NCBI GenBank assembly: GCA_964016885.1
Contig: OZ024740.1
Coordinates: forward strand, 286,688,001 to 286,752,000
DNA from: Eledone cirrhosa
Taxonomy: Eukaryota
Direction of reading: 5' to 3'
Length of the DNA: 64,000 bases
Shown: piece by piece, positions 2,440 through 36,386 of the stretch
Position numbering within the stretch: position 1 is the first letter of the stretch
Layout: every line of letters starts with the position of its first letter
The notes under the pieces: model-generated
The model's database searches: none
The model's input: the letters and a program-made list of their open reading frames with translations, nothing else
What the model was told of the DNA's origin: nothing
Program-made: the position numbers and the translations under genes

Positions 2440-2656
2440 ATGTATATATGTGTGTGTGTGTGTGTATATATATAAATATATATATAATAAAGAAAAAAAA
2501 ATTTCACTCTACATGGCTGAATACAATAAATGTAATCTGAGTTTTTCGAATATTAATAATAACATTCGATTCATTTACAATTATGCAAACAAGCCTCATT
2601 TATAAAGCCATGTCAGTAGAATGAACCTTTCATTCTTGCTCTTGTGTTGGCATGTA

Positions 2657-2710
2657 AACAGAACTGCAGACACTAATGTTTCTGGGTATCACCCTTCATC
2701 AGTACAGCTC
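2657..2710 (-). ncRNA. Type I hammerhead ribozyme (left arm)
   Basis: Minus strand reads GAGCTGTA-CTGATGA-AGGGTGATACCCA-GAAAC-ATTAGT-GTC-TGCAGTTC. Confidence 0.75.
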
Positions 2711-3191
2711 TCTGCTCACCTGCCAACTGTCAGAGCTAGTGAAAATATATGCTATTTTCTAAAATATACAGTGACTGATTGGCCTGATTTGCATATTAGC
2801 AGACTGGCTGATCAGTTAGATCTGCATATTAGCAGATCCACTGATCAGCCAGATTTGCATATCAGCAAACTGGCCAGTCAGTTTCCTGTATACAAGCAAT
2901 AAATGGCCAGCTTTGCCACATTCAAATAAATTTTTTTTTTAAATGATGAAGGGTGATACCCAGAAACTGTTTTTTTTTTTCTTCTTTATTTGAATGTGGC
3001 AAAGTCGGCCATTTATCGCTCGTATACTGACTGGCCAGTCTGCTGATATGCAAATCTGGCTGATCAGTGAATCTGCTAATATGCAGATCTGACTGATCAG
3101 CCAGTCTGCTAATATGCAAATCAAGCCGATCAGTCACTGTATATTTTAGAAAATAGCATATATTTTCACTAGCTCTGACAGTTGGCAGGTG

Positions 3192-3251
3192 AACAGGGAG
3201 CTGTACTGATGATGGGTGATACCCAGAAACATTAGTGTCTGCAGTTCTGTT
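3192..3251 (+). ncRNA. Type I hammerhead ribozyme (right arm)
   Basis: Stem I GAGCTGTA/TGCAGTTC, core CTGATGA at 3206, stem II TGGG/CCCA, GAAAC at 3226, short stem III, GTC triplet. Predicted cut after 3239. Confidence 0.85.
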
Positions 3252-3396
3252 TACATGCCAACACAAGGGCAAGAATGAAGGGTTCATTCTACTGACATGG
3301 TTTTATAAATGAGGCTTGTTTGCATAATTCCAAACAAATCGAATGTTATTATTAATATTCGAAAAACTCAGATTAAATTTATATATATATATATCA

Positions 3397-6300
3397 GCCA
3401 TGGAAAACCATCTCCAACTCTCCCACCCTACCAAGTTCCCATTTACCTCTCACTCTCCCCACCCCCCAAACTCCATAACTTCAGTCTTGGCACCATGAAA
3501 GGTAAATCTGGAGAGATCGTAGAGATGCCTGAAAGAATGAAAGTTGATGTGTGCTGTGTACAAGAGACTAGATTCCTGGTAGGCACAAAACGATGCAACA
3601 AATTTGTCTGAGTGGGAAATGACGACGGGCTTGGTGAAGTAGGGATTTTGGTAGCAGAAAAGTGGGTAAACAAAATTATTGCTGTAAATAGAGTAAATGA
3701 CTAATTAAATTTAGATTTAAACTAAACAGAACAATCATGACAATTATATCTGTCTACGCTGCTCAATCTGGACTTCAAACATACAAAAAGACAGGTTCTA
3801 TGAGTTCCTAATGCTCACTACCTCCCAAATTAATGAGAATGACTTCCTACTTATTGAAGGTGACTTCAACAGACATGTGGGACAACTCTCTGATGGCTTT
3901 GATGGGATCCACAGCGGGTACGGTCCTAGAAATGAGGAAGGATTCAGACTACTGGAATTCTGTGACACCAATAACCTATTTATCTGTAACACGAACTTCA
4001 GAAAATGAGACTGTCACCTAATCACATATAGATCAGGTAACCTCACTAGCCAAATTGATTTCATTGTTAATAGAAGATGAGACAGAGTGAGTGTTAGGAA
4101 CACAAAGTGCCTCCTCAGTGAAGAATGCACCTCCCAACATAAACTAGTAGTTAGCAACCTTATATTCAGGGCTAGAACTCGACAACAGAAGCCTATTTGG
4201 AGGAGATGAGTATGGAAGTTAAAAGACCCATCAAACAGTGACAAATTTAGAAGTATGCTGACCGACGCCTTCAACAGCAAGGAAGAACAAATAGAAACAT
4301 AATATAGAGGAGCAGTAGGAGTTCCTGAAAGCGACAGACAAAATTTGTGGTCGGAGTAGGTCCCTTGGGAGACGAAGAGTGACTTGGTGGTGGAATAGTA
4401 AAGTAGATGAGAAAATTAAGGCCAAAAGACAGGCTTGGAAAGATTGGCGTAATGGAGGTAGCAGGGAAGTTTACTAGAAGGCTAGGCGACAAGTTTACCT
4501 CGCTAGAAGGGAAGCAGAAAACGAAAAATTTAAGAATGTTTTGCAGTGTGAGGAGCAAAGAGGTGAGGTGTTCAGGATCGCTAGACAGTGTGTCAGAAAT
4601 GACTTTGGTGAACTTGCCCTCACTGACACTAAAAAGAAGGTAAGTAGCATGAAAGTGCCACTGAATGATTACTGAATGAGTAGAATTCATGGAATAAAGA
4701 CAGTCTGTCACATGTCGACCCAACAGAGGGACTGACTATACAAGTTAGCGGTAGTATAGTAAGTAAGGCAATCAAAGATATGAAGTCAGGCAGGGCAGCT
4801 GGGCCCTCAGGGATAGTTGCTAAGGTACTGAAAACTTCAGGTATGGTGGGCCACACCATAGTCTCCCACATTGTAAACCAAGTCATACAAAATGGTGTGA
4901 TACCCAATGACTGGTGTAGCAGCATCTTTGTAAACTGCTACAAGGGCAAAGGAGATGCCCTAGATAGAGAAAACTATAGAGGCATTAAGTTGGTTGTCTA
5001 GGTTATGAAGGTCACTGAAAGAGTCTTAGCTCAGTTGATTAGAGAACGTGTTAACATAGATGAGATGCAGTTTGGATTTGTCCCAGGTAAGAGTATCACA
5101 GATGCCCTCTTCCTTGTTAGACAACTGCAGGAGAGTACCTAGCTAAAAGTAAACCCCTCTACCTGGCTTTTGTCGACCTTGAAAAAGCTTTTGTCAGAGT
5201 CTCCCATTCTATTATCTGGTGGGCTCTTAGAAAACTAGGAGTTGACAAATGACTTGTGAGGGCAATTCAAGCAATGTATAGAAGAACAGCCAGTAAGGTT
5301 AGAATTAACAATGACTATAGTGAAGAATTTAGCGTGCAGGTTGGTGTCTATCAGGGGTCTGTTCTTAGCACTCTTCTGTTTATCATCGTTCTGCAGGCAA
5401 TAACGGAGGAGTTTAAGACCGGCTGCCTATAGGAACTACTGTATGCTGATGACCTAACCCTTATAGCCGAATCTAGAGATGAAATTCCAAACCTGGAAGC
5501 AAGGCCTAGAATCGAAAGGTCTTAAAGTCAACCTGGCAAAGACTAAAGTCCTAGTAAGTAGAAGGGATAACAGGAACAGATATCTTCTGGGAAATGGCCC
5601 TGCTCAGTGTGCAGAAAAGGAGTAGGTAGAAATTCCATTCTATGTACCAAATGCAAGCAATGGGTACACAAGAGATATAGTGGCATCTCAGGCAGGCTAA
5701 CAAAGAATGTAGGTTTAACTTGTGGCAGGTGCACAGAGGCAGTAAGTAGCAAGAACCCTCAAGATACAACCACCTTCAAATGCTCAGATGGCTCGGTTGA
5801 AGTGGTAGATAGTTACCATTAACTGGGTGACCAAATCAGTTGTGGAGGAGGGGGTTCCGAAAGCACATTAACCAGAACGAGATCAGGTTGGGGAAAATTG
5901 AGGGAGCTACTACCGCTACTAACTACAAAAGGGATCTGTTGTTGCATGCAGGAGAGGAGATTGCGTTGGTATGGACATGTGATGAGTATGAAGGATGACA
6001 GCTGTATAATAAGGTGCAGAGCACTCAAAGTCGATGGTAGCCGTGGTGTGGACAGGCCTAGGAAGACTTGGGACGAGGTAATAAAAGCTGACCTTGCACA
6101 ATTACACCTCTCAAAGGCAACGACACGAGACCACGACCTCTGGTGCTAAGCAGTTTTACAGAAGACCCGCCTTCTATGAGGATTATACCTAGTAGGCAAC
6201 ACCTTCCTCAATCTTCTAACTCCGCTAATTCACCTCCCTTAGCGGTAACCATACCTCTCCTACTACCCTCTCCACATTTTCCCCCAAGCTCCTCCACCCT

Positions 6301-7124: not shown

Positions 7125-7202
7125 GAAATATATATACATTTCTGTGTGTGTAATATATATATATACTAGCAGAAAGCCAGCTGGTGGGCGATTTTCTGCT
7201 AG
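6810..7202 (+). mobile_element. Non-autonomous Helitron-like element, family A
   Basis: Starts TC, has an early TGTCTGTCTG tract, and ends in the hairpin CTAGCAGAAA...TTTCTGCTAG with terminal CTAG. A similar 3' hairpin occurs at 21441-21478. Confidence 0.5.
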
Positions 7203-8232: not shown

Positions 8233-8250
8233 TGGTGACCCCGACGTGAT
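8233..8250 (+). promoter_or_regulatory. Primer-binding site complementary to the tRNA-Trp 3' end
   Basis: TGGTGACCCCGACGTGAT is the reverse complement of ATCACGTCGGGGTCACCA, the metazoan tRNA-Trp 3' end. It starts 1 nt after the 5' LTR. Confidence 0.85.
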
Positions 8251-11950: not shown

Positions 11951-12011
<61 letters not shown>

Positions 12012-12040
12012 AGATCAAAAGATGGTTAAAGGAGTTCCAT

Positions 12041-12112
12041 GTATTTTATTATGCGCATTTCAAAAACAAACATCATCATGCAATAATATTTGTGTTTTCA
12101 TCAGATAAAACA
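12041..12112 (-). ncRNA. Type I hammerhead in an orphan pLTR-like fragment (about 12005-12455)
   Basis: Minus strand reads GTTTTAT-CTGATGA-[paired stem II CAAATATTATT/GATGATGTTTG]-GAAA-TGCGCA-TA-ATAAAAT. Stem III is the palindrome ATGCGCAT. Confidence 0.72.
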
Positions 12113-12484: not shown

Positions 12485-12486
<2 letters not shown>

Positions 12487-12620
12487 CGAAGGAAATATGG
12501 TAAAGAACCAGGTGGATCATAACGCACCAAAGTACTCAATACTTAGGGTAGTAGAGTGGGTAATAGGAACGAGTAGGACCCCGACGGCTTGAGCTCAGCC
12601 GTCGGGGTCCTACTCGTTCC

Positions 12621-12698
<78 letters not shown>

Positions 12699-12912
12699 CG
12701 AAGGAAATGTGGTAAGGAACCAGGTGGACCATAACGCACCAAAGTACTCAATACTTAGGGTAGTAGAGTGGGTAATAGGAACCAGTAAGACCCCGACGGC
12801 TGAGCTCAAGCCGTTTCGACGGCTAATTCTGGACTTTTTTTTTTTTTTTTTTAGTCCAGAATTAGCCGTCGAAACGGCTTGAGCTCAGCCGTCGGGGTCT
12901 TACTGGTTCCTA
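12485..12912. repeat. Two tandem fold-back units containing the 3' half of a hammerhead
   Basis: Palindromes at about 12563-12623 and 12776-12912. GAAAC-GGCT-TGAGCTC-AGCC-GTC at 12871-12893. Units are separated by (TA)n. Confidence 0.65.
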
Positions 12913-13063
12913 TATATATATATATATTCATTATTTCAGCAAAACAAGACCACAAATTTCACAAGGAAGACATTATTAAAAGATTGTCAACATATTTTAG
13001 TTTGATGTAAGGAATGTAGAGAATAATAATAATAATAATAATAATATTAATAATAATAATGTC

Positions 13064-13188
13064 CGTTTACAATTGTTTCGCTACTCCGTATAATATTTCT
13101 GGATCAAATGACTATGTATCATAATTGATCTGGTTCAGTTGAAAATAATTAACATATTTAAAAAAAACAGAGTGACTCATCGGAACAT
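13064..13188 (-). ncRNA. Hammerhead-like motif with variant CCGATGA core and long stem II (inverted pLTR of PLE A)
   Basis: Minus strand reads GTT-CCGATGA-GTCACTCTGT...ACGGAGTAGC-GAAA-CAATTG-TA-AAC. Confidence 0.5.
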
Positions 13189-14214
13189 AAATTAAAATAA
13201 TGTTACATAATATAATGTTCCATATATTAGTTTTTACTATGGTGCCTTGGTTTCATCAGCTGTCAGCCATAATCAAGTAATACTCATCTGTCGAGGCTGC
13301 ATTGTGTGAGATCTGCCCATGGGTAACAAGATGGCTGCCAAAGGGCATATTTACCTTACTAATTAGAGGGTGGTTTCAGGGGAAGTAACTTCTCGAGAGA
13401 TTAGAGATTGTGTGTATTTTATAGTTATGTGCTAGTATTTAAATTATTTAATTGAGAGACAATGTAGGGGAGGTAACTTATAATTATCGAGTTGTTCATA
13501 GCAATTTAACTTATTTACCACCCTTATGTACCAACAACCCCAAGGTTCTCTCTCAAGGACCACAAGCCAAAATTTATAGAGAACCCATCCATTAGACTCA
13601 TAAGCCCAACCACATCTGACCTGGGCCGCATCAGTAAGAACATCATTGATAGGATAATCCCTGGTGATATAGGATAATCCCAGGTGATATTTCTAGGTCT
13701 ATTCCTTCTAGGGGTTCTAGTGGAGTTGGTAGGGGCCTTCCTAGGGTTATTATTACCTGGGGGTTTGTTATTTGTCATCCCATTTCTCATTCCTATTCTA
13801 GGGTTGATTCTTAGTTTGCTACTAGGAGTGGGGAGCTAACCGCTGCCACCACTAAAGTTCGCTGTATAGGTGCTGTCACTGCTAAAATTCCGGCGAATCT
13901 GGCTATATGCTAAGGTATTTCTAGTTCTAGTGTTAAGTTTATTATGGTGAGTTGCTGTGTTATGGCATTTTGGTATGTAATAAATTGATTGTTTATAACC
14001 AGATTCAGAGAGAGCCTTATTATAATATTGTGCGTGATTTATAAATATCTCTTCATTTGCTGATAGCATTGAGATCCTATAGGAGATAGATTTGATTACT
14101 GCTCTGATGACTGCCGGTGGGTGGTTAGAGTGTGGGCTAATATATGTGAGTATTTCGCCTGGTTTATGGTAAAGGTTATAAAGGTTATTGTTGAGATCAA
14201 GGGTGACGTCTAGG

Positions 14215-16176
14215 AAGGTTCTCTTTCAAGGACTACAAGCCAAAATTTATAGAGAACCCATCCATTAGACTCATAAGCCCAACCACATCTGACCTGGGCC
14301 GCATCAGTAAGAACATCCTTGATAGGATAATCCCTGGGCTACGGGATGATACCACCTACAAGTTGTGGTCCAACACCAGCCAAGTCATCAGATGGTTCTC
14401 CGATCTAAGGTCCAAGCAATCTATGAGGTTCATCCAATTTGTTATAGACAGCTATTACGCGTCAATAACCCCGGAACTGCTCAACAAAGCACTAGCCCTA
14501 GCCACCACCAACTCGGACATAACCAATAATGAGATTAACATCATACTCATGGCTAGGCAGACTATCATTGAATTCAACGGAGCACTCTGGACTAGAAAAG
14601 ATAGAACAGACAACTTTGACATTACGATGGGCTCAAGTGACTCCGCGCAAATCACTGATTTGGTTGGGATTTACCTATTACGTAACATCAGAGTCGAAAT
14701 CCAACCCATGCAAGGTGGAATATACAGGGACGACGCCCTATTTGCAGTCCACAATTGCACTAATCGGGGAATCTCGATTTGCTTAAGAAACAATTTCATA
14801 GATTCTTCAAAAATAACGGTCTCTCTATCACCATCGAGCTGAACCATAAAGTAGTAAACTTCCTAGACGTTACCCTTGATTTCAACAATAACCTTTATAA
14901 CCCTTACCATAAACCAGGCGAAATACTCACATATATTAGCCCACACTCTAACCACCCACCGGTAGTCATCAGAGCAGTAATCAAATCTATCTCCTATAGG
15001 ATCTCAATGCTATCAGCAAATGAAGAGATATTTATAAATCACGCACAATATTATAATAAGGCTCTCCCTGAATCTGGTTATAAACAATCAATTTATTACA
15101 TACCAAAATGCCATAACACAGCAACTCACCATAATGAACTTAACACTAGAACTAGAAATACCTTAGCATATAGCCAGATTCGCCGGAATTTTAGCAGTAT
15201 CAGCACCTATACAGGGAACTTTAGTGGTGGCAGCGGCCTGCTCCCCACTCCCAGTAGCAAACTAAGAATCAACCCTAGAATAGGAATGAGAAATGGGATG
15301 ACAAATAACAAACCCCCAGGTAATAATAACCCTAGGAAGGCCCCTACCAACTCCACTAGAACCCCTAGAAGGAATAGACCTAGAAATATCACCTGGCTTA
15401 ACCCACCATTCTCATCTAATCTAGCCACTAATATCCCCAATCGTTTCTTCTCTATCCTATCCAAACACTTCCCCCCTAACCATAGATATTACAAACTCTT
15501 TAATAAAAACAACATTAAAATCTCATTCTCCACAACACCTAACCTAGCTAGCCACATCGCGTTCAGTAACCATCATAAGCTAAGACAGTATAACTCCCAC
15601 ACCGCGGTACCACCACCCCTATCAAATACACCACGCCACTACACTAGTGATTACTCTAGTAGCACACCTCCCCCATCTAATCCTTCTAGCACGGACCAAC
15701 TGCTTAGGTTAAATAACCCTACTCTCACTAACCGCAGAAGCAACTGCAACTGCCGGTACCCCAATGCATGCCCATTAAATGGACACTGCCTGACACCCAA
15801 CATAGTCTATAGGTGCACAGTTGAGACTGCTTCGAATACCAGCTCTTATATCGGGTCTACCTCTAACCCTTTTAAGGTACGCTATAACGCGCACTCTTTT
15901 TCCTTCCGAGACCCTAGCAACAGATGTTCGACATCGCTAGCTAGGCTCATTAAAAACCTTAAATTAAACAAAGTTCAACACTCACTAAAATGGGATATCG
16001 TAGCTAGGGCCCAACCGTTCAATGGACGAAGGAAATCTTGTGATCTCTGTGTTACGGAAGCATATTACATAACTCTATCACGACCTCTACCAATTAACGA
16101 TAGAACGGTGGTAACCATTAGCTGTCAACATCGAAGGGCTAATTCCTTCGCCAATAGAGTTTTAGACCCAACTTAG
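14215..16176 (+). pseudogene. PLE reverse transcriptase + GIY-YIG endonuclease, 5'-truncated, one frameshift near 14770-14790
   Basis: RT motifs MGSSDSAQITDLVG, GGIYRDDALF, VNFLDVTLD and SNHPP. Then ITWLNPPFS, CNCR..CPLNGHC, SYIGSTS, FKVRYNAH and CDLCVTE. Confidence 0.9.
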
Positions 16177-16543
16177 TCATGTAGCCCCATCTCTAATTGT
16201 AGCTAATAAGTTAAATTGCTATGAACAACTCGATAATTATAAGTTATCTCCCCTACATTGTCTCTCAATTAAATAATTTAAATACTAGCACATAACTATA
16301 AAATACACACAATCTCTAATCTCTCGAGAAGTTACTTCCCCTGAAACCACCCTCTAATTAGTAAGGTAAATATGCCCTTTGGCAGCCATCTTGTTACCCA
16401 TGGGCAGATCTCACACAATACAGCCTCGACAGATGAGTACTGCTTGATTATGGCTGACAGCTGATGCAACCAAGGCACCATAGTAAAAACTAATATATGG
16501 AACATTATATTATGTAACATTATTTTAATTTATATTCCTTTGA

Positions 16544-16677
16544 GTTCCGATGAGTCACTCTGTTTTTTAAATATGTTTTTTTAAATATGTTAATTATTTT
16601 CAACTGAACCAGATCAATTATGATACAGAGTCATCTGATCCAGAAATATTATACGGAGTAGCGAAATAATTGTAAAC
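16544..16677 (+). ncRNA. Hammerhead-like motif in the 3' pLTR of PLE A
   Basis: GTT-CCGATGA (16547)-GTCACTCTGT...ACGGAGTAGC-GAAA-TAATTG-TA-AAC. Confidence 0.5.
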
Positions 16678-17033
16678 GGACATTATTTTTATTAATATTA
16701 TTAATGCACTGGGTAATTACTGGCCTTGTGCCTAAAGTAGAAACAATTATTATTATTATTCTCTACATTCCTTACATCAAACTAAAATATGTTGACAATC
16801 TTTTAATAATGTCTTCCTTGTGAAATTTGTGGTCTTGTTTTGCTTAACTAATGAATATTTCCAGCTCTGCGCACCTAACCTCTGCATGAACCCAGCCACC
16901 TAGCTGCTTTCTACTGCATATTGCACATTGAGCACATGCCTTTACGTTTTGGCTTCTAACTAACTCACCAATCTTTCCTCTCATATCTCTTCTACTATCT
17001 CCATCTCTCTCTTTAAGATTGATTACTCTTGAA

Positions 17034-17087
<54 letters not shown>

Positions 17088-21372: not shown

Positions 21373-21618
21373 ATTGTCAATTTACATATATCTATATGCA
21401 TATATATTTGCGTATAATACCAATATGCACACTACATATGCTAGCAGAAAACCGCACGATGGGCGGTTTTTCTGCTAGTATATATTATATATATATATAT
21501 ATTAGGATTGGTGCTCTGAAATAGCGATGTATACATGAATGTATGCATAGTATATTTAAAACATTTTGAAGACCTTACGCTATCATTTTTAAAGTAGTCA
21601 CTACGTCACTTACTTCTT

Positions 21619-21703
21619 TTCGGCGAAAGAAGGCAGAGAAGCTAACAGTCTGTTTCATGCTGTTGGCAATCATCAGAGCTACGTACTACCCTCTTCCGCC
21701 GAA
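21619..21703 (-). ncRNA. Type I hammerhead with extended stem I
   Basis: Minus strand reads AGCT-CTGATGA-TTGC-CAACA-GCAT-GAAACAG-A-CTGTT-AGCT. Distal helix TTCGGCGGAAGA/TCTTTCGCCGAA. Confidence 0.7.
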
Positions 21704-21850
21704 ACGGTATATACTATGCATACATTCATGTATACATCGCTATTTCAGAGCACCAATCCTAATACTTAATTTTTTCTGGACCAGCAATCGCTCTGTATAA
21801 TCAGCTCCTGATTATTGCTGGAATTCTATAAGAATCCAGCTTCTATAATC

Positions 21851-21934
21851 TTCGGCGGAAGAGGGAGTACGTAGCTCTGATGATTGCCAACAGCATGAAA
21901 CAGACTGTTAGGATCTCTGGCTTCTTTCGCCGAA
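21851..21934 (+). ncRNA. Type I hammerhead with partly disrupted proximal stem I
   Basis: CTGATGA at 21877 and GAAAC at 21897. The 3' strand reads AGGAT instead of AGCT. Confidence 0.55.
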
Positions 21935-22036
21935 AAGAAGTAAGTGACATACTTTAAAAATGATAGCGTAAGGTCTTCAAAATGTTTTTAATTAAACATA
22001 CGGTATATTGCCAAATATAGTATGCATACATTCATA

Positions 22037-22374
22037 TCTATATATCTAAAACAGAGAATGTATGTCTGTCTGTCTGTCTGACTCCCTAAAACTCGAGAAC
22101 CACCCAACTGATTGTTTTCAAACTTTACACATGTAATACTTATGGTCGTGTGAGTGTTTTGAGCAAAAAGATTTTCAAATTTTCAATGTCCTAGGGATCG
22201 CATTAGACGATTTAGCAATCTCTCTATAATTCTTAGTTTTTCTTTTTAGATAGATACATAGCTACAACGTCGCGCCCTTATAATATCTGTCTGTATGTCT
22301 GGCTGTCTGCATTACGACATTATGACGCTACCTGTGTGTGTGTGTGTGTGCGTGTGTGTATGCATATATAGTGT

Positions 22375-22999: not shown

Positions 23000-23050
<51 letters not shown>

Positions 23051-23053
<3 letters not shown>

Positions 23054-23261
23054 ATATTAATAAATGGAAACTATATTTATAAAACCATAATTATTTTATT
23101 ATATATATTTCAAGGGCGACCAATTATGGTGCGCTTTCATCAGATAAAATACACATTTGTTTTATAAATATTAATATATTTTATATATTTACTCCACTAA
23201 TCTGTTGAGTGCTTTATATCTGTTATAAAAATGTTTAAGCTTGTTGAATCCCAACAACCTC

Positions 23262-23264
<3 letters not shown>
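23051..23264 (-). mobile_element. Short internally deleted copy of the PLE remnant at 25801-27583
   Basis: Both termini match 25801-27583 in reverse complement. Confidence 0.7.
23092..23151 (-). ncRNA. Type I hammerhead ribozyme
   Basis: Minus strand reads TATTTTAT-CTGATGA-AAGCGCACCATAATTGGTCGCCCTT-GAAA-TATATA-TA-ATAAAATA. Confidence 0.72.
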
Positions 23265-23320
<56 letters not shown>

Positions 23321-23325
<5 letters not shown>

Positions 23326-23655
23326 TGTATATTCAATAATATAGTGTATGTTTATTTAAAAACATTTTGAAGGCCATTCGCTATGAATTTTAAGATAGTG
23401 ATTAACGTCACATACCTAACTTCGGCAAAAGCAAAGGGGAGTAATCGACGGTCACTGTTTCTCACTTGTTAGTGGCTGTCAAGACTACATACCTCTTTGC
23501 TTTTGCCAAAAACTATAGAAGCTGGATTCTTATAGAATTCCAGTTATGTTTATGAGCTGTTGAAACTCATTTGCATATAAAGCGGTTGCCGGTCAGCATC
23601 AATTAGAAATTTGTATTGGTGCTCTGAAATAGCGGTGTATATATGAATGTACATA
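23321..23655 (-). mobile_element. Retrozyme-like monomer, 322-bp family, decayed hammerhead core
   Basis: ATGAATGTA at 23321 and 23643. Minus strand reads GTAGTC-TTGACAG-CCAC-TAACAA-GTGA-GAAAC..GTC-GATTAC (23441-23488). Distal helix GGCAAAAGCAAAG/CTTTGCTTTTGCC. Confidence 0.7.
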
Positions 23656-24039
23656 TTGTATATTATATATAATTATATCTTTATATATACAGAGTGGGCA
23701 ACCAAGACTACACCAGTGTGTATATAAACATACACATATTTAATATGTAGGCATGTAAACATGCTTGAAAATATGAATTTCCTTGTAAATTGAGAAAAAG
23801 ATAAACACCTTTAATCAATTTTCACGTGTAATTGGACCCTCATCTGAGAGCCTGTATATCTTCCAAACAACCACAAAGAAACATGTATCTGATGGAATTA
23901 CATACCCATTCACCCGTAGCATTTTTTCTGAAATGGACCCACTAATTTGCATATAATTAGCACTTATGTTGGTATGTGTGTGTGTATGTATATATATATA
24001 GAAGTAGTAACACAATAGTTAGTTCACCATACCGAAAAC

Positions 24040-25712: not shown

Positions 25713-25800
<88 letters not shown>

Positions 25801-25803
<3 letters not shown>

Positions 25804-27583
25804 GAGGTTATATTTAATTTGTTGGGATTCAACAAGCTTTAACAGTTTTATAACTGATATAAAGCACTCAACCATAAATGTTCCTTTACGAATATTGGTA
25901 AAAAAATCTTCAACTTCTCTATCTAACTTATTATGGGACTTAAAATCCAAGAATATTAACTATTCTTTACTTTGGAAAATTATTTCCAAAGCTCCTTCAT
26001 ACACTGCGTTATCCAAAAATTGCTCACTTTGCGTTGAAGAAATATTTTTTATACTAAAAAGTAAGAACTCTATTAATTTACGAAATAATTTATTTAGTTC
26101 CTGTAAACATCGTTTAAACTCAACTTTTAAATATATATATAAAATGTAATATATGATTTATCTCCTTTACATAATGTTTTCTATATCTATATATGATTCA
26201 TATATATTTAATTTACTTTATATTATCTCGACCTCATATATATACTATATACTTTATATTATTACACCTATCGATAGATTATAATTTTTTTTATATGACT
26301 ACTTGAAACTCCTTTAAGAAAACTTTTTCTTGAAAAACTTACGGAAGGTTTTAGAAAAAAATCTTTTTGAAAATTCCTTTGAAAGATATAGAAAAACCAT
26401 TATTTTCATACCTTCCAATATTTTTATATCTTCAAACGTTTTTAATATATATATCCAAATGTTTATATATATGTGGAAAAACATATGGTTTATATATATA
26501 TAGGGTTTTTTATATATATGTGGAATAACCTATGGTTTATGCTTTAAATATATTCTTAAGATAAATTTTTTTTTATTTTTTAACTTTATAGCAAGTAAAT
26601 TTATGGCTTCGTATAAAATAACATATGGTTCATGTTTTAATTATATTCTTAAGATAAAATTTTTTTTACTTTTTAACTTTATAGCATTTAATCCTTGGAG
26701 TCATCTGAGATCTTAAAAAATCACTTCTAACTTCCTTTACACTTCCTTACTGTTTTTATAATATAATTAAGTGGTTATTCCTTTGTAAACTCTCGTAAAT
26801 TTTTCATAAATTTAGAATTATTTGGATGTTTAAATTTTGACTTACAACTTTTAATAAAATAAACTATACTAGATTTTCTCTAATGTAAAATACTATATAT
26901 TTATTTAAATAATTTATAATCCTTAACATACACATTTAAACTAATTATTAATATTAAATTATTAAATTAAATCTTTAATATTAAGGCAAATTTTAATCTA
27001 TAATTTTTATTTCTAATTTTTAATTTTAATCTAATTTTTCAACCTATCATTATAAGTATTGTAATCAAAACGTAATGAACCCTGCATTATAAATATTATT
27101 CTTCCACGTTAATCTTATTTCTTATTTCACTTAGATATACTTACGCTGTGTATATTTATCCTTTGAAATTTATTTCTTCATGCACTCTATCTTCACTATC
27201 AATATGTATAATCGTTCTTTCTTTCCTCTTCTATCTTTCTCCTTTCTTTTTTCTTTTTTCTTTATTTTCTTTTTTTCTTTTTTCTCTCTCCCTTACATAT
27301 CATCTTCTTCCAACAGTTTAATTTAAATAAACCGTTATCTTTTCAACCTTTCGGACACTCATTTGCATACTCACTCACAACTTTATATTACCCTCAATAA
27401 ATGTATTATCTCCACTATCCAGGAAGCTCCAACCGTTAAGGTTGTCTTTTTTTCCGGGTATGTCAATATTTATTTATAAAACAAATCTGTATTTTATCTG
27501 ATGAAAGCGCACCATAATTTGCCTTGGTTGCCCTTGAAATATGTATAATAAAATAAATATAGTTTCCATTTATTAATATATTA
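25801..27583 (+). mobile_element. PLE 3' remnant: GIY-YIG C-terminus, long AT-rich UTR, pLTR with HHR
   Basis: ORF 25799..26149 (STSLSNLLWDLK, WKIISKAPSY, CSLCVEE, SSCKH). HHR at 27490-27555. (TA)n on both sides. Confidence 0.75.
27490..27555 (+). ncRNA. Type I hammerhead ribozyme
   Basis: TATTTTAT-CTGATGA-AAGCGCACCA...TGGTTGCCCTT-GAAA-TATGTA-TA-ATAAAATA. Confidence 0.7.
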
Positions 27584-27624
27584 TATATATATATGTGTGT
27601 GTGTATATATATATATATATACAA

Positions 27625-28051
27625 TTTGATTAAAATAACAGGAGGCCAGACTGGTAACGTTCCTTTAAGGTTTTATTGTTGCAAAAACACTATATATATT
27701 TCAATCGCTTGGTTACGTAAGATTCTGGCGACTAACGACATAGCAGTATCTATAACAGCAGGATGTATGTCACCACCACACACGAGCCACACCCATTTTG
27801 GTTGTGTCTACCAAATCCACAATGCTTTGCCTTAACGAGCTTGTTATTCAGAGATGGTTGCAGGCCATCTCCAAATCAATTATTTTCTATATTTTCCCTG
27901 TTTGTGTTTGCCATAATTCCTTTATTGATTAACTAATTATGCAATCTATACCTGACGATGTAACCAGGCCATTGAAATACATATAGTGTTTTTACAACAA
28001 TAAAACTGTAAAGGAACATCACCAGTCTGGCCTCCTGTTATTTTAATCAAA
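27625..28051. mobile_element. Small element with ~90-bp inverted ends and a degenerate hammerhead
   Basis: 27625-27716 is the reverse complement of 27960-28051. Plus strand 27947-27990 reads ATAC-CTGACGA-N15-GAAA-TACATA-TA-GTGT, with a weak stem II. Confidence 0.55.
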
Positions 28052-28286
28052 CCAATATTTAACTCTGTTCCTGCACCAGCCACAGGTTTCAACATCAACA
28101 GTGGATGAGTTGCGTAATGTAGAGAGAGAGTGCTTTTCTTACTATTACATGAGCGTTAACCAAACAGAATGACCAGTTCTATCCAGTGATGAACCACAAA
28201 GAATAAATCAATATATATATATAGAGAGAGAGAATAAGTAAAAGCGAAGTAGTTTCAGATGTTCAAGTCCTTTAATAATAATGCTG

Positions 28287-29047: not shown

Positions 29048-29085
<38 letters not shown>

Positions 29086-29177
29086 CGCCTACACACACAC
29101 ATACACACACATAAATATATATATATATATAGAATGGAAAACGAAAAATCAGTGATGCATCGAAACTCAATTTATTG

Positions 29178-29267
29178 CGTATTACAATTGTTTCCTCGGT
29201 GAACAGCTCGAGGTGCGATATGTGTGTGGATCGACCTGACTCTAGATTCACAGGTTCCTCAGACACG
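29178..29267 (-). ncRNA. Hammerhead with long stem II (PLE C left end)
   Basis: Minus strand reads CGTGT-CTGAGGA-[~60 nt, GTGAA/TTCAC pairing]-GAAA-CAATTG-TA-ATACG. Confidence 0.65.
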
Positions 29268-30939
29268 TCTTTTGATTTCGGAGCAGATCCTCTTTCTGGG
29301 GTTTCTGACCCTACGGGTCTATATCGTCCACCTTCATCCTCTTTGCGCGTCCTTGGCTTGGTCACTGGTTAGTGACACATACATCTACACACACACACAT
29401 ATATTCTTTTACCTGTTTCAGCCATCCGGCTGAGGCCATGCTGGGGCACCGCCCTATATATATATTTACATTTATATATTTACATTTACAATATATATAT
29501 TTACATTTTTTCCTCTACACGTGTGCATATACATACACACACACTCACACATATACTCTTACACATATATATATGTATATACATATATTTACACACACAT
29601 AAAAAATATATAAAAAATACATAAGAAAAGCATATAAAAATACACATTGGGCTGTACATGAAAAAATAGGTTAATAGCACCCTCCAAATCGGACCTGGGT
29701 CGGGCCAGTAAGAATATCATAGATAGGATACCACCGGTATTTAGGAATAAAACTAGGCTTAGCTTATAGACCTCCACCAATGAGGGAATTGACTGGTTCT
29801 TGCTATTAGATAGCAAGCAACAGGTAAATTTCATTCAGTTGGACATAGCGAATTACTACGCGTCCGTATCACCAGTAATCGTGAACAAGGCCCTCATGAG
29901 CGCCATGGCTAAGTCCAACCTCACTAGATAGGAAGCAAATATCATTATAGCGGCAAGAAAGACGTTAATTAGCTTCGACAATAAATTATGGGAGAGCAGA
30001 GACAGACCCGACAGTTTCGATATTATTATGGGGTTGAGTGATTCTGCGCAGGTGACGGACCTGGTGGGAATATACCTCCTCCAAAGGCTAGCGGAGGAGA
30101 TCCCAGGGATTGGCGGAGGAATATATAGAGATGACGCACTATTTACCTTCTGCTCCCTAAACCCCAACCAGCTGGAGCGTATGCGGAAGTGCATATCACA
30201 TTTTTTAAGCAACACGGCTTATCCGTGCTGATAGATCCTAGCACTAAAACGGTGAATTTCCTTGATGTTACTCTGGAACTGAATACAGGCATACACCAAC
30301 CATACCACAAGCCCAACGAGAACCTATAATATGAGACGCCATAGTAAAAGGGGTATCCAAACGCGTATCCACCCTGTCGGCTAACGCAGATGTGTTTAAC
30401 CAGCACGCCGACTATTATAATGAGGCACTGTGCAGGGCCAGCTACACAGAAGCCATAGTGTACACCCCAGACAGGGAAGGGCCTAGTGACGAGGCACGCG
30501 AATATGAGGATAGCAATAGTACTTCCATAGGTAGACAGTACAACTCGAACTAGCACCTAGGAATAGGAGTAGCAGTATAGATTACCGCAAGGACGCAAGA
30601 CTGACACTGGGACAGACAAAGGCACACGTGGATGGCAGACTACTCAGTACACGCAGACGGAATCCCGACATGAACACAATACACGACGCGGACACTAGAA
30701 CTAGGGACAGGGTAAAGACAGATAAGGGCATGAAACCAGGTAGAAGAAACACCCGGATCTGTACCAATGAAATAGCCCCGACAACAGCACCAGATAGCAT
30801 TAACGGGACTACCAGTAGAGCCGACAATATAGAACGAAATACTTCAGTAACTCCGACGCACACGGTAGATATATAGATAGCGGCAACATAGGGGACGAAA
30901 TAACGGGCAGACACAACCCGAAACGGACACCTGACCCAA

Positions 30940-30984
<45 letters not shown>

Positions 30985-33037
30985 ACACAGACGACGGAAT
31001 ATGACAAGGTCTAAGACCATTACATAGTTTAACGCACCGTATTCGAAGCATGTATGCAACAATGTACCAGGCCTCTTCTTCCGAGCGTTGGACGAGTGCT
31101 TCCCACCGTCGAACAGGTACCACAGGATATTCAACCGCCACACAGTGAAGTTCTCTTTCTCCACCGCACCTAACATGGCAGACTACATGGCCAAAACCAA
31201 CGCGGTGAAGTTGGGGAAACTCAACCGTCAACAGCGGCAGGCGACTGACGGTCCAACGGGGCTCAGAGGGCCCCTTGCAGACAGGGTTTCCAACTATGCT
31301 CCGGTCCCCGCAGCGGCCGCCATACCCGCGGAAGACGCTGTTTTCGAATGCCAGGCGGAACTGAATGACGGAGGGGAGCCCACCACACCGACAGAACAAC
31401 ACCCAGAGAATCGGGGGAGTGCCGTAGTAGACCAAGGGCCTAACGTTAGAAATGAACAATAACGACCGAACATGCAACTGCAGAGCGGGCACACAATGCC
31501 CTCTGCAGGGAAGATGCCTAACGAAGGGTCTAGTATATAAATGTGTGGTTAACATGCACAACACCAAGCGCACCTACATCGGCGCAACATCCACGACCTT
31601 TAAATCGAGGATGTATAATCACACAAACTCTTTCAAGGACCGGAGCAAGAGACACTCCACTAGGCTGGCGGACCTAATATGGGATTTGAAAGACAACGGC
31701 ACCCTGTATGATCTCAACTGGAGTATCGTTCAACATACAAATGCATATTCAGCTGGAAAAAGGAAGTGTAGGCTATGCTTATCCGAGGCCATGGAGATTA
31801 AAGGATGATGCGGTCAACCTGAAATCGGAGATTATTATGACGTGCAGACACCAGAGAAGGTGCACATTCTCTGCATGGACACAACCGGACAGTCCAAACT
31901 AAAGGCATGCGGGGGAAGCGGACGCCTGTCTGAGCGGCGGCGCGGGTCCAAAGGATCAGACACCATACCTTGATCAGACATCTATTACCTCCTTGGTAGA
32001 GGTCCATAAGCTAAGCCTAGTTTTATTCCTAAGTACTGGTAGTATCATATCTATGATATTCTTACAGGCCCTACCTAGGTTCGATTTGGAGGGTGCTATT
32101 AACCTAGCGGGGAGATTTGTCCTAAAGTCTAATTTGTGATCCTTAATGAATATCTGCGGTTTTCTGGGTACATAGGGTTCTGAACCATCATCTATTTCTA
32201 GCCCTATCATTATATTTTTGGTCGTGGCGTTGATGTTATCTAGGTTGTCCTGTCCTGTGGTCCTATAGTTTTTCCTAACTTCTTTCCCGATGCAGTTGTT
32301 GTACGTAAATTAGTAAAGCATGTATACATTACCGGTTTTGTCCAAGGGAACAAGTAAATCCGGGCATCTTTCCATGCTTTTGATTGTGGAGCTGAGTTTC
32401 CTGAGGTATTCATTATTGTGTGTATTATTCCTTCGGAATTTGATGTTTCGAATGATACTGACGATACGGTTTTCAAATTCTTCCAGCAGTGCGTTATGTG
32501 GTGGGTGTCGTCTTGATTTAAAGATCCGTTTGAGGCGGTGCTGAGGATTATCGTGTGCGTGCTGCTCGGCCTTTTGTCATGGTGGAATGCGCGTCATCTC
32601 ATGTGTCTAATGAAGGAGTTGGTGTGGTGGATCAATAGGCTCATGTCCGATATATATATATTTTTATATATTCTGCATACATTTTCTATATATGGTCTGG
32701 GCATACCCTTTACTACCATGAACTCCCCATATGTAGTTTTGCTTGAGGTTTCTATACATGGATTAATCCACGTTGGCAACACAATAACCACTCTGTCAGC
32801 ATGTACATCAAGGTGTATTTTTTCATGTACAGCCCAGTGTGTATCTTTATATGCTTTTCTTATGTATTTTTTATATATTTTTTTATGTGTGTGTAAATAT
32901 ATGTATATACATATATATATATGTGTAAGAGAATATGTGTGAGTGTGTGTGTATGTATATGCACACGTTTAGAATGAAAAAAAAATGTAAATATATTAGA
33001 TGTATGTGTGCATACATATGTGTGGGCGTGTGGGTAG

Positions 33038-33706: not shown

Positions 33707-33925
33707 AGTGTGAGCAGACAAACACAGCAGTAATTTTGCCAGCGGGAGAATGGGTGAGTAACAGCTCACGCCCCGATGGTCAGTGGGCTGCTACCAGTGG
33801 TCAGAATTATGATGACATCACTAACCAGTGACCAATCCAAGGACGCGCAAATGGGATGAAGGTGGACAATATAGACTCTTAGGGTCAGAAACCCCAGAAA
33901 GAGGATCTGCTCCGAAATCAATAGA

Positions 33926-34016
33926 CGTGTCTGAGGAATCTGTGAATCCAGAGTCAGGTCCGATCCACACACAGATCGCACCTCGAGCTGTTCACCAGGG
34001 AAACAATTGTAATACG
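33926..34016 (+). ncRNA. Hammerhead with long stem II (PLE C right end)
   Basis: CGTGT-CTGAGGA (33931)...GAAA-CAATTG-TA-ATACG. Stem III is the palindrome ACAATTGT. Confidence 0.65.
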
Positions 34017-34138
34017 CAATAAATTGAGTTTCGATGCATCACTGATTTTTCGTTTTCCATTCTATCATACTCTGCTCCGTAGGAGCATAGAGTGCTCAAC
34101 CGGCATACCGCCAATGGAAGCATCTTAGCTACCATTAG

Positions 34139-34184
<46 letters not shown>

Positions 34185-34419
34185 AAGGCGGGTAAAATTC
34201 CCGAGATCCATGGACGAGTTCTCTCCAGCGGTCTCTGTCCCTCATTATCGCTGCCATGTCCTGCGTCTCCAACAGACCAGTGTCTGTCCTTAGGGCATCA
34301 ACATATATATATATATATGAATATAGACATAGAATATTCGAAAATATTCTGTATGTTTATAATAAACATTTTGAAGACCTAATCGCTATAGAATAGAATA
34401 CGTCACGTATTACAATTAG

Positions 34420-35438
34420 ATTCTCGATAAAAGCAAGGGAAGTAATCTACGCGTTTCATTCTTGTTAGAATTCATCAGGACTACATATCCAGTGCTTTTA
34501 TCGAGAATGACACAGCTAGAGACTTATAGAATACTTAGCTGTGTACAGGAACTGGTTTGAAAGAGCGGTTGCCGGTCCGGCAGAAATTAGAAATTGGAAT
34601 AAATGCTCTGAAATAGCGATATATATATGAATATAGACATAGAATATTCGAAAATATTCTGTATGTTTATAATAAACATTTTGAAGACCTAATCGCTATA
34701 GAATAGAATACGTCACGTATTACAATTAGATTCTCGATAAAAGCAAGGGAAGTAATCTACGCGTTTCATTCTTGTTAGAATTCATCAGGACTACATATCC
34801 AGTGCTTTTATCGAGAATGACACAGCTAGAGACTTATAGAATACTTAGCTGTGTACAGGAACTGGTTTGAAAGAGCGGTTGCCGGTCCGGCAGAAATTAG
34901 AAATTGGAATAAATGCTCTGAAATAGCGATATATATATGAATATAGACATAGAATATTCGAAAATATTCTGTATGTTTATAATAAACATTTTGAAGACCT
35001 AATCGCTATAGAATAGAATACGTCACGTATTACAATTAGATTCTCGATAAAAGCAAGGGAAGTAATCTACGCGTTTCATTCTTGTTAGAATTCATCAGGA
35101 CTACATATCCAGTGCTTTTATCGAGAATGACACAGCTAGAGACTTATAGAATACTTAGCTGTGTACAGGAACTGGTTTGAAAGAGCGGTTGCCGGTCCGG
35201 CAGAAATTAGAAATTGGAATAAATGCTCTGAAATAGCGATATATATATGAATATAGACATAGAATATTCGAAAATATTCTGTATGTTTATAATAAACATT
35301 TTGAAGACCTAATCGCTATAGAATAGAATACGTCACGTATTACAATTAGATTCTCGATAAAAGCAAGGGAAGTAATCTACGCGTTTCATTCTTGTTAGAA
35401 TTCATCAGGACTACATATCCAGTGCTTTTATCGAGAAT
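34420..35438 (-). ncRNA. Four tandem type I hammerheads (cores 34442-34484, 34752-34794, 35062-35104, 35372-35414)
   Basis: Each is the reverse complement of GTAGTC-CTGATGA-ATTCT-AACA-AGAAT-GAAAC-GC-GTA-GATTAC. Confidence 0.88.
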
Positions 35439-35819
35439 GACACAGCTAGAGACTTATAGAATACTTAGCTGTGTACAGGAACTGGTTTGAAAGAGCGGTT
35501 GCCGGTCCGGCAGAAATTAGAAATTGGAATAAATGCTCTGAAATAGCGATATATATATGAATATAGACATAGAATATTCGAAAATATTCTGTATGTTTAT
35601 AATAAACATTTTGAAGACCTAATCGCTATAGAATAGAATACGTCACGTATTACAATTATAAACATACAGAATATTTTCGAATATTCTATGTCTATATTCA
35701 TATATATATCGCTATTTCAGAGCATTTATTCCAATTTCTAATTTCTGCCGGGCCGGCAACCGCTCTTTCAAACCAGTTCCTGTACACAGCTAAGTATTCT
35801 ATAAGTCTCTAGCTGTGTC

Positions 35820-35907
35820 ATTCTCGATAAAAGCACTGGATATGTAGTCCTGATGAATTCTAACAAGAATGAAACGCGTAGATTACTTCCCTTGCTTTTA
35901 TCGAGAA
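35820..35907 (+). ncRNA. Type I hammerhead ribozyme (array unit)
   Basis: Stem I GTAGTC/GATTAC, CTGATGA at 35850, stem II ATTCT/AGAAT, GAAAC at 35871, palindromic stem III ACGCGT. Predicted cut after 35880. 15-bp distal helix TTCTCGATAAAAGCA/TGCTTTTATCGAGAA. Confidence 0.9.
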
Positions 35908-36129
35908 TCTAATTGTAATACGTGACGTATTCTATTCTATAGCGATTAGGTCTTCAAAATGTTTATTATAAACATACAGAATATTTTCGAATATTCTATG
36001 TCTATATTCATATATATATCGCTATTTCAGAGCATTTATTCCAATTTCTAATTTCTGCCGGACCGGCAACCGCTCTTTCAAACCAGTTCCTGTACACAGC
36101 TAAGTATTCTATAAGTCTCTAGCTGTGTC

Positions 36130-36217
36130 ATTCTCGATAAAAGCACTGGATATGTAGTCCTGATGAATTCTAACAAGAATGAAACGCGTAGATTACTTCC
36201 CTTGCTTTTATCGAGAA
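36130..36217 (+). ncRNA. Type I hammerhead ribozyme (array unit)
   Basis: Identical to 35820-35907, shifted by 310 bp. Predicted cut after 36190. Confidence 0.9.
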
Positions 36218-36386
36218 TCTAATTGTAATACGTGACGTATTCTATTCTATAGCGATTAGGTCTTCAAAATGTTTATTATAAACATACAGAATATTTTCGA
36301 ATATTCTATGTCTATATTCATATATATATCGCTATTTCAGAGCATTTATTCCAATATATATATATATATATATATATACATTTTGA

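What the first reader, a model, noticed from the sequence alone, without database searches (positions are those of the whole stretch)
2517..36355. One polarity rule links all paired hammerhead elements to Penelope-type integration
Seen: in eight pairs (2.7/3.2 kb, 12.8/12.9, 13.1/16.6, 21.6/21.9, 23.1/27.5, 27.7/27.96, 29.2/34.0, 34.4/35.8) the left HHR or half-HHR is on minus and the right one is on plus. The 3' ends therefore point outward, and most ends abut (TA)n. This holds for RT-coding PLEs and for ORF-less elements. Known: PLE insertions often carry an inverted 5' pLTR, and pLTRs contain minimal HHRs. Inferred: the non-coding ribozyme elements are mobilised in trans by the neighbouring PLE RT/GIY-YIG proteins, through twin priming or fold-back at TA-repeat targets.
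Basis: partly seen in the sequence, partly recalled or inferred. Interest (0 to 1): 0.75.

Follow-up and report, generated by a model that had tools for sequence, protein, structure and literature searches.

The report
Penelope insertion footprint shared by retrozymes
Seven of the eight ribozyme pairs are the two mirror-image halves of single jumping-gene insertions in TA repeats, and the protein-free ribozyme repeats carry the same two-ended footprint as the Penelope-type jumping genes, so they were likely pasted in by a Penelope-type enzyme, as already suspected but not shown in this way in the papers searched.

Summary
The polarity is real, but it is the known anatomy of Penelope-like element (PLE) insertions. 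Seven of eight pairs are two arms of one insertion. Pair 23.1/27.5 is mis-paired: two separate insertions, each obeying the rule. Only three pairs are ORF-less retrozymes (2.7/3.2, 21.6/21.9, 34.4/35.8); four are ends of Hydra-clade PLEs; one is unresolved. Orientation-blind genome samples gave head-to-head:tail-to-tail 24:1, 25:5 and 9:0; control repeats gave 9:7 and 4:4. A sharper rule emerged: each family has two fixed 3' ends (short, or with a 26-182-nt tail), and two-armed insertions carry one of each (104 of 113 classifiable pairs; 18 of 18 in an orientation-blind retrozyme sample). Fold-back cannot be the general mechanism: in 22 of 52 pairs neither arm contains the other. Best reading: both target ends prime reverse transcription at two fixed RNA sites, and the cDNAs join. 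'Neighbouring' PLEs are broken and merely share the TA target; the mobilising PLE is unidentified. Head-to-head PLE structure and the retrozyme-PLE link are in print; this footprint in retrozymes was not found in seven searches. The scan found it before on other DNA of this genome.

The parts
2486..2930 (-). Family F1 (ORF-less, about 437-bp unit): left arm with hammerhead (core 2702) and the long, tailed end
2931..3380 (+). F1 right arm (short partial unit, then 2985-3380) with hammerhead (core 3206) and the short end at (TA)n
12007..12110 (-). Unpaired hammerhead-bearing end of another family (core 12104), about 72% like F5
12485..12625 (.).
12698..12835 (-). F2 left arm: 3' end of a Hydra-clade PLE with 77-nt tail; only the 3' half of the hammerhead is kept
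12853..12913 (+). F2 right arm, short end
12924..13515 (-). F3 left arm: inverted 3' UTR/pLTR of the PLE at 14.2-17.0 kb, short end
13522..14220 (.). Rearranged direct and inverted pieces of the F3 ORF at the arm junction
14207..16176 (+). 5'-truncated, frameshifted Hydra-clade PLE ORF (RT and GIY-YIG)
16177..17039 (+). F3 right arm: 3' UTR/pLTR with atypical hammerhead and 182-nt tail, long end at (TA)n
21500..21703 (-). F4 (ORF-less, 314-bp unit) left arm with hammerhead (core 21676) and 26-nt tail
21709..22040 (+). F4 right arm (partial unit plus unit, core 21877), short end
23050..23266 (.). Small F5 head-to-head insertion: minus arm 23050-23177 with hammerhead (core 23143, short end) joined to plus tail-only arm 23169-23266 (long end)
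23299..23664 (-). Single-armed, diverged F4/F8-like copy with short end
25800..27585 (.). Separate F5 insertion: minus tail-only arm 25800-25872 (long end), then plus GIY-YIG fragment, 3' UTR and hammerhead (core 27498), short end
27625..27716 (-). F6 left arm, short end, 3' half of a hammerhead
27721..28211 (+). F6 right arm with degraded hammerhead (core 27952) and 151-nt tail; old family, parent unresolved
29129..29375 (-). F7 left arm: inverted pLTR with long-stem-II hammerhead (core 29262), short end
29668..31900 (+). Truncated, frameshifted Hydra-clade PLE ORF
31983..32522 (-). Inverted N-terminal piece of the same ORF
33818..34141 (+). F7 right arm: pLTR with hammerhead (core 33931) and 77-nt tail, long end
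34309..35658 (-). F8 (ORF-less, 310-bp unit) left arm, 4.35 units, four hammerheads, short end
35655..36355 (+). F8 right arm, 2.26 units, two hammerheads; 26-nt tail at 36330-36355, long end; 4-nt overlap with the left arm

Best explanation
Each true pair is one insertion with two head-to-head arms, one ending at a fixed short site and the other at a fixed tailed site, both in (TA)n; this was likely made by a Penelope-type RT/GIY-YIG enzyme that primes reverse transcription from both cut target ends, and the ORF-less retrozymes likely borrow that enzyme in trans. Shown: arm geometry, two fixed ends per family, one of each per insertion, TA target, frequent non-nested arms, shared variants between arms. 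Inferred steps: the enzyme cuts both strands of (TA)n; each 3' end anneals by a few bases (family ends read AT, mostly TAT or AAT) to one of two fixed internal sites on uncleaved RNA; the two cDNAs grow towards the RNA 5' end and are joined by blunt, microhomology or short-insert repair; for retrozymes the template is a circular or multimeric RNA, giving tandem arms. The helper is some active TA-targeting PLE elsewhere in the genome (Hydra- or Neptune-type), not the broken neighbours.
For: Polarity in orientation-blind lists: 24:1 within 6 kb (first 100 of 3,759 places); 25:5 (first 100 of 53,660); 9:0 strand switches within 2 kb (first 100 of 24,745). Control repeats 9:7, 4:4, 1:1. Direct TA-free same-family junctions: 190 head-to-head, 0 tail-to-tail (not orientation-blind). 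Bimodal ends in every family. One long plus one short end: 104, against 6 long/long and 3 short/short, of 154 pairs, 41 unclassifiable; ORF-less families alone 25, 1, 1 of 49; orientation-blind F4/F8 sample 18, 0, 0 among 21 two-armed of 28 insertions. Both F8 ends are seen next to TA in raw reads of other samples (36019: 283 and 237 reads; 35735: 267 reads). Non-nested arms: 22 of 52 F2 pairs, 7 of 8 F1 pairs (read). Arms share subtype in 35 of 43 F2 pairs, 17% expected; F8 arrays mostly carry a locus-specific haplotype on both arms. No PLE ORF upstream of F8 (0 of 27), F4 (0 of 30), F1 (1 of 30). A purified PLE cuts and extends both strands and starts at two internal RNA sites that define the tail (PMC11167929).
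Against: No enzyme or RNA evidence for this organism. No autonomous partner was found, and retrozyme tails (26-27 nt) are shorter than the Hydra tails (77-182 nt) and the two Neptune tails measured (about 39 and 64 nt). 41 of 154 pairs had an end at neither site or at a locus edge. A few long/long and short/short pairs remain after inspection. 7 of 28 sampled retrozyme insertions are single-armed. In 30 of 52 F2 pairs the arms are nested or equal and so fit fold-back too. The between-arm distance was not below the nearest other locus in 3 of 11 F8 loci and 2 of 9, and one array has two haplotypes in one arm, so 'one RNA molecule' is not shown. TSDs cannot be read inside (TA)n. No empty allele was examined.
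Confidence: 0.72

Rival explanations
1. Fold-back or self-priming: one cDNA, or an antisense RNA as proposed in PMC3846280, folds back at its end and is copied, giving the inverted arm.
For: Some junctions are near-perfect palindromes with 15-19-nt overlaps. The arms share variants. 30 of 52 F2 pairs are nested or equal. PMC3846280 reads junction palindromes as self-priming (passages).
Against: A copied-back arm must lie inside the first arm. In 22 of 52 F2 pairs and 7 of 8 F1 pairs neither arm contains the other. The tailed arm is the shorter one in 7 of 9 F8 insertions with both ends seen. The copy would also have to stop at a fixed site.
Confidence: 0.1
2. The retrozymes move with a different enzyme (a LINE such as RTE or CR1, or another TA-targeting RT), and the likeness to PLE insertions is convergent.
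For: LINE copies are present in the window and loci. No PLE parent was found for F1/F4/F8. Tail lengths differ from those of the PLEs measured.
Against: No poly(A) or simple-repeat tail. A direct repeat of 8 nt or more flanked only 1 of 25 insertions (two rows are duplicates). L1-type twin priming gives non-overlapping halves with one tail (recalled), whereas here both arms end at fixed sites. The one-sided tail is described as unique to PLEs (PMC11167929). The control repeats show no polarity.
Confidence: 0.08
3. F1/F4/F8 are not independently mobile. They are pLTR-only products of an autonomous PLE read in cis, amplified locally into arrays by DNA-level tandem expansion, as suggested in bioRxiv 10.64898/2026.07.22.740005.
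For: F2 shows that a PLE can leave thousands of ORF-less double-ended stubs (13,869 fused mini-palindromes). The preprint finds retrozymes related to pLTRs in frogs.
Against: Units run tail-into-next-unit, with no ORF upstream in 0 of 27, 0 of 30 and 1 of 30 loci. Arrays of up to 30 units span both inverted arms with a shared haplotype and exact outer ends, which unequal crossing-over would not be expected to give across an inversion (inference).
Confidence: 0.07
4. Assembly or long-read fold-back artefact.
For: The arms at 34.3-36.4 kb are 99.7-100% identical, and no read or contig piece listed spans that junction.
Against: Flanks are not mirrored, ends are family-fixed and unequal, old diverged families (F6, 72-85% identity) show the same layout, and both F8 ends appear in raw reads of other samples.
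Confidence: 0.03

Closest known systems
Insertion units of endonuclease-bearing PLEs (Gladyshev and Arkhipova 2013, PMC3846280; Craig et al. 2021, PMC8557442, Fig. 2 legend; passages read)
   Same: [quoted passage not shown]
   Different: There the tail is 'optional' and 30-40 bp; here it is 26-182 nt and close to obligatory on exactly one arm. The inverted arm was read as self-priming; non-nested arms here argue for two priming events.
Hydra clade of PLEs (PMC8557442, section 11 read whole)
   Same: C-terminal GIY-YIG, DKT, CxCX5C linker, CxxC and CxH around E and N, no CCHH, (TA)n target, hammerhead (families F2, F3, F5, F7).
   Different: RWK reads RWR in the intact F2 ORF; F2 has a U3-A8 hammerhead core; F3 and F7 have long stem II inserts. 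No phylogeny was run.
Metazoan non-LTR retrozymes (Cervera and de la Pena 2020, PMC7229834; review PMC7761336, passages; Li, Clavereau and Pollet 2026, bioRxiv 10.64898/2026.07.22.740005, parts 1-3 of 5 read)
   Same: ORF-less tandem units of 310-437 bp, one type I hammerhead each, low GC, co-occurring with PLEs, which these papers name as the likely mobilisers.
   Different: The passages read base the link on co-occurrence, shared hammerheads and pLTR homology, not on insertion anatomy; the 2020 review says no motif points to the helper. Here the retrozymes carry the PLE footprint itself. Expression and circles were not shown here.
PAc Poseidon element in vitro (Frangieh et al. 2024, PMC11167929, parts 1-2 of 4 read)
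   Same: Both strands of AT-rich DNA cut and extended; two internal RT start sites that define the tail; uncleaved RNA is the template.
   Different: Different clade; no difference in start site between strands was seen in vitro, whereas the genomic pairs here carry one site on each end. No shared stem-loop was evident at the sites here.
Opposite-strand minimal hammerhead pairs in Schistosoma (Cervera and de la Pena 2014, PMC4209133, parts 1-2 of 4 read)
   Same: Dual hammerheads 100-700 bp apart on opposite strands; U3-A8 core variant.
   Different: Polarity and ends were not tallied in the parts read.

Membership tests
Hydra-clade PLE (F2, F3, F5, F7) | Single ORF with RT and C-terminal GIY-YIG | tested here: met
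   Intact 786-aa stop-to-stop frame in L316; window ORFs are 33-50% identical pieces. Pfam gave no hit for the Hydra-type ORFs, so domains rest on motifs.
Hydra-clade PLE (F2, F3, F5, F7) | DKT and RWK motifs | tested here: met
   DKT present and RWR for RWK in L316; this region is missing from most window copies.
Hydra-clade PLE (F2, F3, F5, F7) | CxCX5C linker, CxxC and CxH around E and N, no CCHH | tested here: met
   Alignment A1; the F5 fragment lacks the linker and the F7 fragment lacks the CxH part.
Hydra-clade PLE (F2, F3, F5, F7) | Hammerhead in the pLTR; insertion in (TA)n | tested here: met
   the F3 core is atypical.
Hydra-clade PLE (F2, F3, F5, F7) | Phylogenetic placement with Hydra references | not tested
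   No reference set was on hand.
Non-LTR retrozyme (F1, F4, F8) | ORF-less tandem unit of a few hundred bp with one type I hammerhead per unit | tested here: met
   Units of 437, 314 and 310 bp; hammerhead fold; no PLE ORF upstream.
Non-LTR retrozyme (F1, F4, F8) | Self-cleavage of the RNA | not testable with these tools
   Motif only.
Non-LTR retrozyme (F1, F4, F8) | Expressed as linear and circular monomer RNA | tested here: inconclusive
   No RNA run was available to lay; haplotype sharing is indirect.
Non-LTR retrozyme (F6) | ORF-less tandem unit | tested here: inconclusive
   No ORF within 1.5 kb upstream in 30 loci, but copies share up to about 950 bp upstream, hardly form tandems and have a 151-nt tail; probably an old PLE end.
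PLE-type insertion footprint (F1, F4, F8) | Inverted 5'-truncated copy joined head-to-head | tested here: met
   21 of 28 insertions in the orientation-blind sample; 12 of 15 F8 loci.
PLE-type insertion footprint (F1, F4, F8) | Tail on one end only | tested here: met
   18 of 18 classifiable; 25 of 27 classifiable, one a duplicate.
PLE-type insertion footprint (F1, F4, F8) | Sequence homology to the pLTR of an autonomous PLE | tested here: inconclusive
   None found in the fetched loci, including 30 GIY-YIG loci and 20 longer stretches; these are a small part of 3.0 Gb.
LINE-mobilised SINE (RTE, CR1 or L1 type) | Poly(A) or simple-repeat tail with flanking TSD | tested here: not met
   Ends are fixed internal sites abutting (TA)n; direct repeat of 8 nt or more in 1 of 25 rows. 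A TSD made only of TA cannot be excluded.

The most novel reading that the evidence does not exclude
PLE integration is obligately two-ended and asymmetric: one enzyme dimer primes both broken (TA)n ends on one uncleaved RNA, one at the short site and one at the tailed site. Retrozymes exploit this as circles, so that rolling-circle reverse transcription runs from both ends and writes a head-to-head array in a single event. The one-short-one-tailed rule would then be a sequence-only test for which enzyme class moved any non-coding repeat.
Probability: 0.4. Interest if true: 0.72.

Novelty: new member of a known kind. Interest (0 to 1): 0.45.

Why it matters
How PLEs make their inverted, tailed insertions, and which enzyme moves animal retrozymes, are both stated as open in the papers read. 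This genome offers tens of thousands of young insertions with two mapped priming sites per family. That turns the retrozyme-PLE hypothesis from co-occurrence into a footprint match, and gives exact RNA positions to test in the existing in vitro PLE assay. The polarity rule alone is not new.

Tried and rejected
Rfam showed no hammerhead among the 150 rows listed of 172, so a custom descriptor was used; its first version missed motifs with a palindromic stem III and was relaxed. My first idea, that the 12.8/12.9 palindrome is hammerhead stem II folded back, was rejected: both arms are copies of the 3' strand and differ from the natural 5' strand. A DNA search with that stretch returned nothing because its words are too common. 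The search for the mobilising PLE failed: upstream ORFs, 30 GIY-YIG loci and 20 longer stretches gave no pLTR matching F1/F4/F8. Mixed-family junctions as a pointer to the helper: the 6 were an artefact of a contaminated library entry; after cleaning, two chimeras remained (L221, L360), which a deletion between neighbours explains as well. No shared stem-loop at the priming sites by single-sequence folding. No RNA holder listed. Reads over the 35655 junction gave no verdict: no listed piece spans it, and the strand-change joints there reflect the inverted repeat inside the query. One contig from another organism holds the F8 unit as a repeat or circle, library unknown; not used. Empty alleles were not examined. 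PMC5850863 is not held. Supplements of the cited papers were not read; alignments there, and the closed bioRxiv supplements, may bear on whether retrozyme insertion ends were already described. Merging of overlapping loci mis-joined two F8 loci, so one F8 pair is counted twice and two rows of the TSD table are duplicates; searches use distinct loci.
Full report
Setting. The window lies on contig C1 of a 3.0-Gb, AT-rich animal genome. Bases 2.4-36.5 kb are a stack of mobile elements in TA microsatellites. I did not determine the organism.

1. Observation. Self-alignment shows each pair to be an inverted repeat of one family, left arm on minus. A type I hammerhead descriptor gave 12 motifs scoring 11 or more, against 0-1 in each of six local shuffles. 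Complete folds are at 2702/3206, 23143/27498, 33931, six units at 34.4-36.2 kb and, unpaired, 12104; 21676 scored 10. The 29262 copy keeps its core and GAAA and is 94% like 33931. F3 has a CCGAUGA core with a long stem II and F6 is degraded. At 12.8/12.9 only the 3' half is present; the family's full motif has a UUGANAA (U3-A8) core, with 3,759 exact matches in the genome, a variant described in PMC4209133. 19 of 20 outer ends are within 6 nt of (TA)5 or longer, against 6.2% of positions.

2. Corrections. Pair 23.1/27.5 is two insertions. The F5 tail, defined from other copies, lies at 23169-23266 on plus and at 25800-25872 on minus; each hammerhead arm has its own tail-only partner, and the inner ends face each other across TA tracts and unrelated elements. 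F2 is the end of a young autonomous PLE: L316 shows an inverted tailed pLTR, a direct pLTR, a 786-aa stop-to-stop frame and a short-ended pLTR. F3 and F5 have a PLE ORF upstream in 21 and 8 of 30 loci, and F7 has the ORF start just downstream in three. Their motifs match the Hydra clade as defined in PMC8557442. F1 (437 bp), F4 (314 bp) and F8 (310 bp) are ORF-less tandem units; F4 and F8 are about 69% alike. F6 is unresolved.

3. Polarity in the genome. Three pattern searches list places in genome order without regard to strand. Neighbours within 6 kb were head-to-head 24, tail-to-tail 1, same strand 2 for the full F2 hammerhead (first 100 of 3,759), and 25, 5, 2 for a shorter F2 motif (first 100 of 53,660). 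For the F4/F8 tail motif, strand switches within 2 kb were 9 to 0 (first 100 of 24,745). All three samples come from the start of one contig. F2 alone has 13,869 head-to-head fusions within 30 nt. In all fetched loci, direct TA-free junctions within a family were 190 head-to-head and 0 tail-to-tail (this set includes 15 loci picked by a head-to-head pattern; one search found one tail-to-tail joint inside a doubly inverted junction). Tail-to-tail neighbours are nearly all separated by TA, as expected of separate insertions in one tract. Two SINE-like and one Helitron-like repeat (labels by recalled resemblance) gave 9:7, 4:4 and 1:1.

4. The sharper rule. Ends that abut TA fall at two fixed positions in every family. 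The interval, the tail, is 27 (F1), 26 (F4, F8), 77 (F2, F7), about 95 (F5), 151 (F6) and 182 nt (F3). Of 154 head-to-head pairs outside F5, 104 had one long and one short end, 6 long/long, 3 short/short, and 41 had an end at neither site or at a locus edge (one long/short pair is counted twice). On inspection two long/long cases were internal pLTRs with a short end further on, and one short/short case had a partly deleted tail. F5 gave 11, 2 and 0 of 15. ORF-less families gave 25, 1, 1 of 49. In the orientation-blind F4/F8 sample, 21 of 28 insertions were two-armed, all head-to-head; 18 were long/short, none long/long or short/short, and 3 had one irregular end; 7 were single-armed. Raw reads of other samples show both F8 ends running into TA. 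A flanking direct repeat of 8 nt or more was found in 1 of 25 rows (two are duplicates), with no poly(A).

5. Mechanism. Fold-back needs the second arm to lie inside the first. Among 52 directly fused long/short F2 pairs, the short arm reached further 5' in 17, the long arm began beyond the short end in 5, the long arm reached further in 16 and 14 were equal. In F1, 7 of 8 pairs are non-nested; in F4 only 2 of 8 (read). In F8 the tailed arm is the shorter in 7 of 9. Junctions are blunt, overlap by a few bases or carry short inserts. Two priming events, one per target end, fit all of this (inference) and match the in vitro behaviour of PAc, which cuts and extends both strands and starts at two internal sites that define the tail (PMC11167929). 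The arms share their template type: 3.1% mismatch within against 9.1% between loci, and the same subtype motif in 35 of 43 pairs, 17% expected. F8 arms were closer to each other than to the average other locus in 11 of 11 loci, and closer than to the nearest other locus in 8 of 11 and 7 of 9 (the window locus is in both sets). One array has two haplotypes in one arm. This favours, but does not show, one circular or multimeric RNA. Arms include the hammerhead cleavage site, so the template was uncleaved or religated (inference).

6. Who mobilises the retrozymes. Not the neighbours: the window's PLE ORFs are truncated and frameshifted. The genome also holds Neptune-type PLEs (clade by recalled linker and CCHH motifs; Pfam RT and GIY-YIG hits) whose ends show the same two-site layout in TA, with tails of about 39 and 64 nt. 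No pLTR matching F1, F4 or F8 was found in the fetched stretches. Adjacency is best explained by a shared target.

7. What is known. [quoted passage not shown] PMC8557442 draws the inverted copy and the one-sided tail and mentions non-autonomous Chlamys elements (passages). PMC4209133 notes hammerhead pairs on opposite strands. PMC7229834 and PMC7761336 name PLEs as likely mobilisers (passages), and bioRxiv 10.64898/2026.07.22.740005 argues this from co-occurrence and pLTR homology (parts 1-3 of 5). PMC8969392 repeats the link (passages). Seven searches turned up no paper that shows the inverted, one-tailed footprint in retrozymes or a one-short-one-long rule; subscription papers and supplements were not seen. 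Earlier notes of this scan report the same layout on other DNA of this and other genomes; none lies near this window.

8. Verdict. A real and strong pattern, mostly explained by known PLE biology. The elements are new members of known kinds (Hydra-clade PLEs, non-LTR retrozymes). The added value is the counted footprint match for retrozymes and the evidence against fold-back. Interest 0.45.

Noticed in passing
G000-wide; window 12485-12913: F2 leaves 13,869 tiny head-to-head palindromes, both arms cut within about 20 nt of the same place in the 3' strand of hammerhead stem II; this truncation hot spot is unexplained.
   Followed up: partly
L221:1386-1779 and L360:1490-2056: Chimeric arms: an F2 end (L221) or an F4-like retrozyme unit (L360) is joined without TA to an inverted piece of a Neptune-type pLTR, both ending at the same pLTR position; template switch or deletion.
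   Followed up: partly
window 18401-19888, 24002-25419, 37836-38210: Further Hydra-type PLE remnants without a paired hammerhead: one fairly intact on minus, two decayed.
   Followed up: no
window 7190-7830, 9670-11950, 22040-22714: Several copies of a non-coding repeat with CTAG ends and an inner hairpin, in both orientations, Helitron-like by recalled resemblance; a 288-bp part is tandem at 10448-11307.
   Followed up: no
window 7966-9672: Element with 266-bp direct terminal repeats (7966-8231, 9410-9672; 97%), an inner inverted duplication (8260-8987) and an LTR-retrotransposon-like ORF piece at 8593-9165; label by resemblance only.
   Followed up: no
window 24038-24256, 28948-29130, 42010-42056, 51927-52079: Other short palindromes with no hammerhead motif found.
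   Followed up: no
window 59136-60518: 460-aa frame with a long C2H2 zinc-finger array.
   Followed up: no
L409:7079-9501 and about 20 other loci: Another hammerhead-bearing tandem family of about 490 bp, and a further abundant short family, both in TA tracts.
   Followed up: no
L332 and G000:C3:112.36-112.37 Mb: F8 array of at least 30 units; the minus arm changes haplotype part-way.
   Followed up: partly
run X4, laid on window 35736-36045: A 340-nt contig from another organism matches the F8 unit at 99% or more and closes on itself; library type unknown.
   Followed up: no
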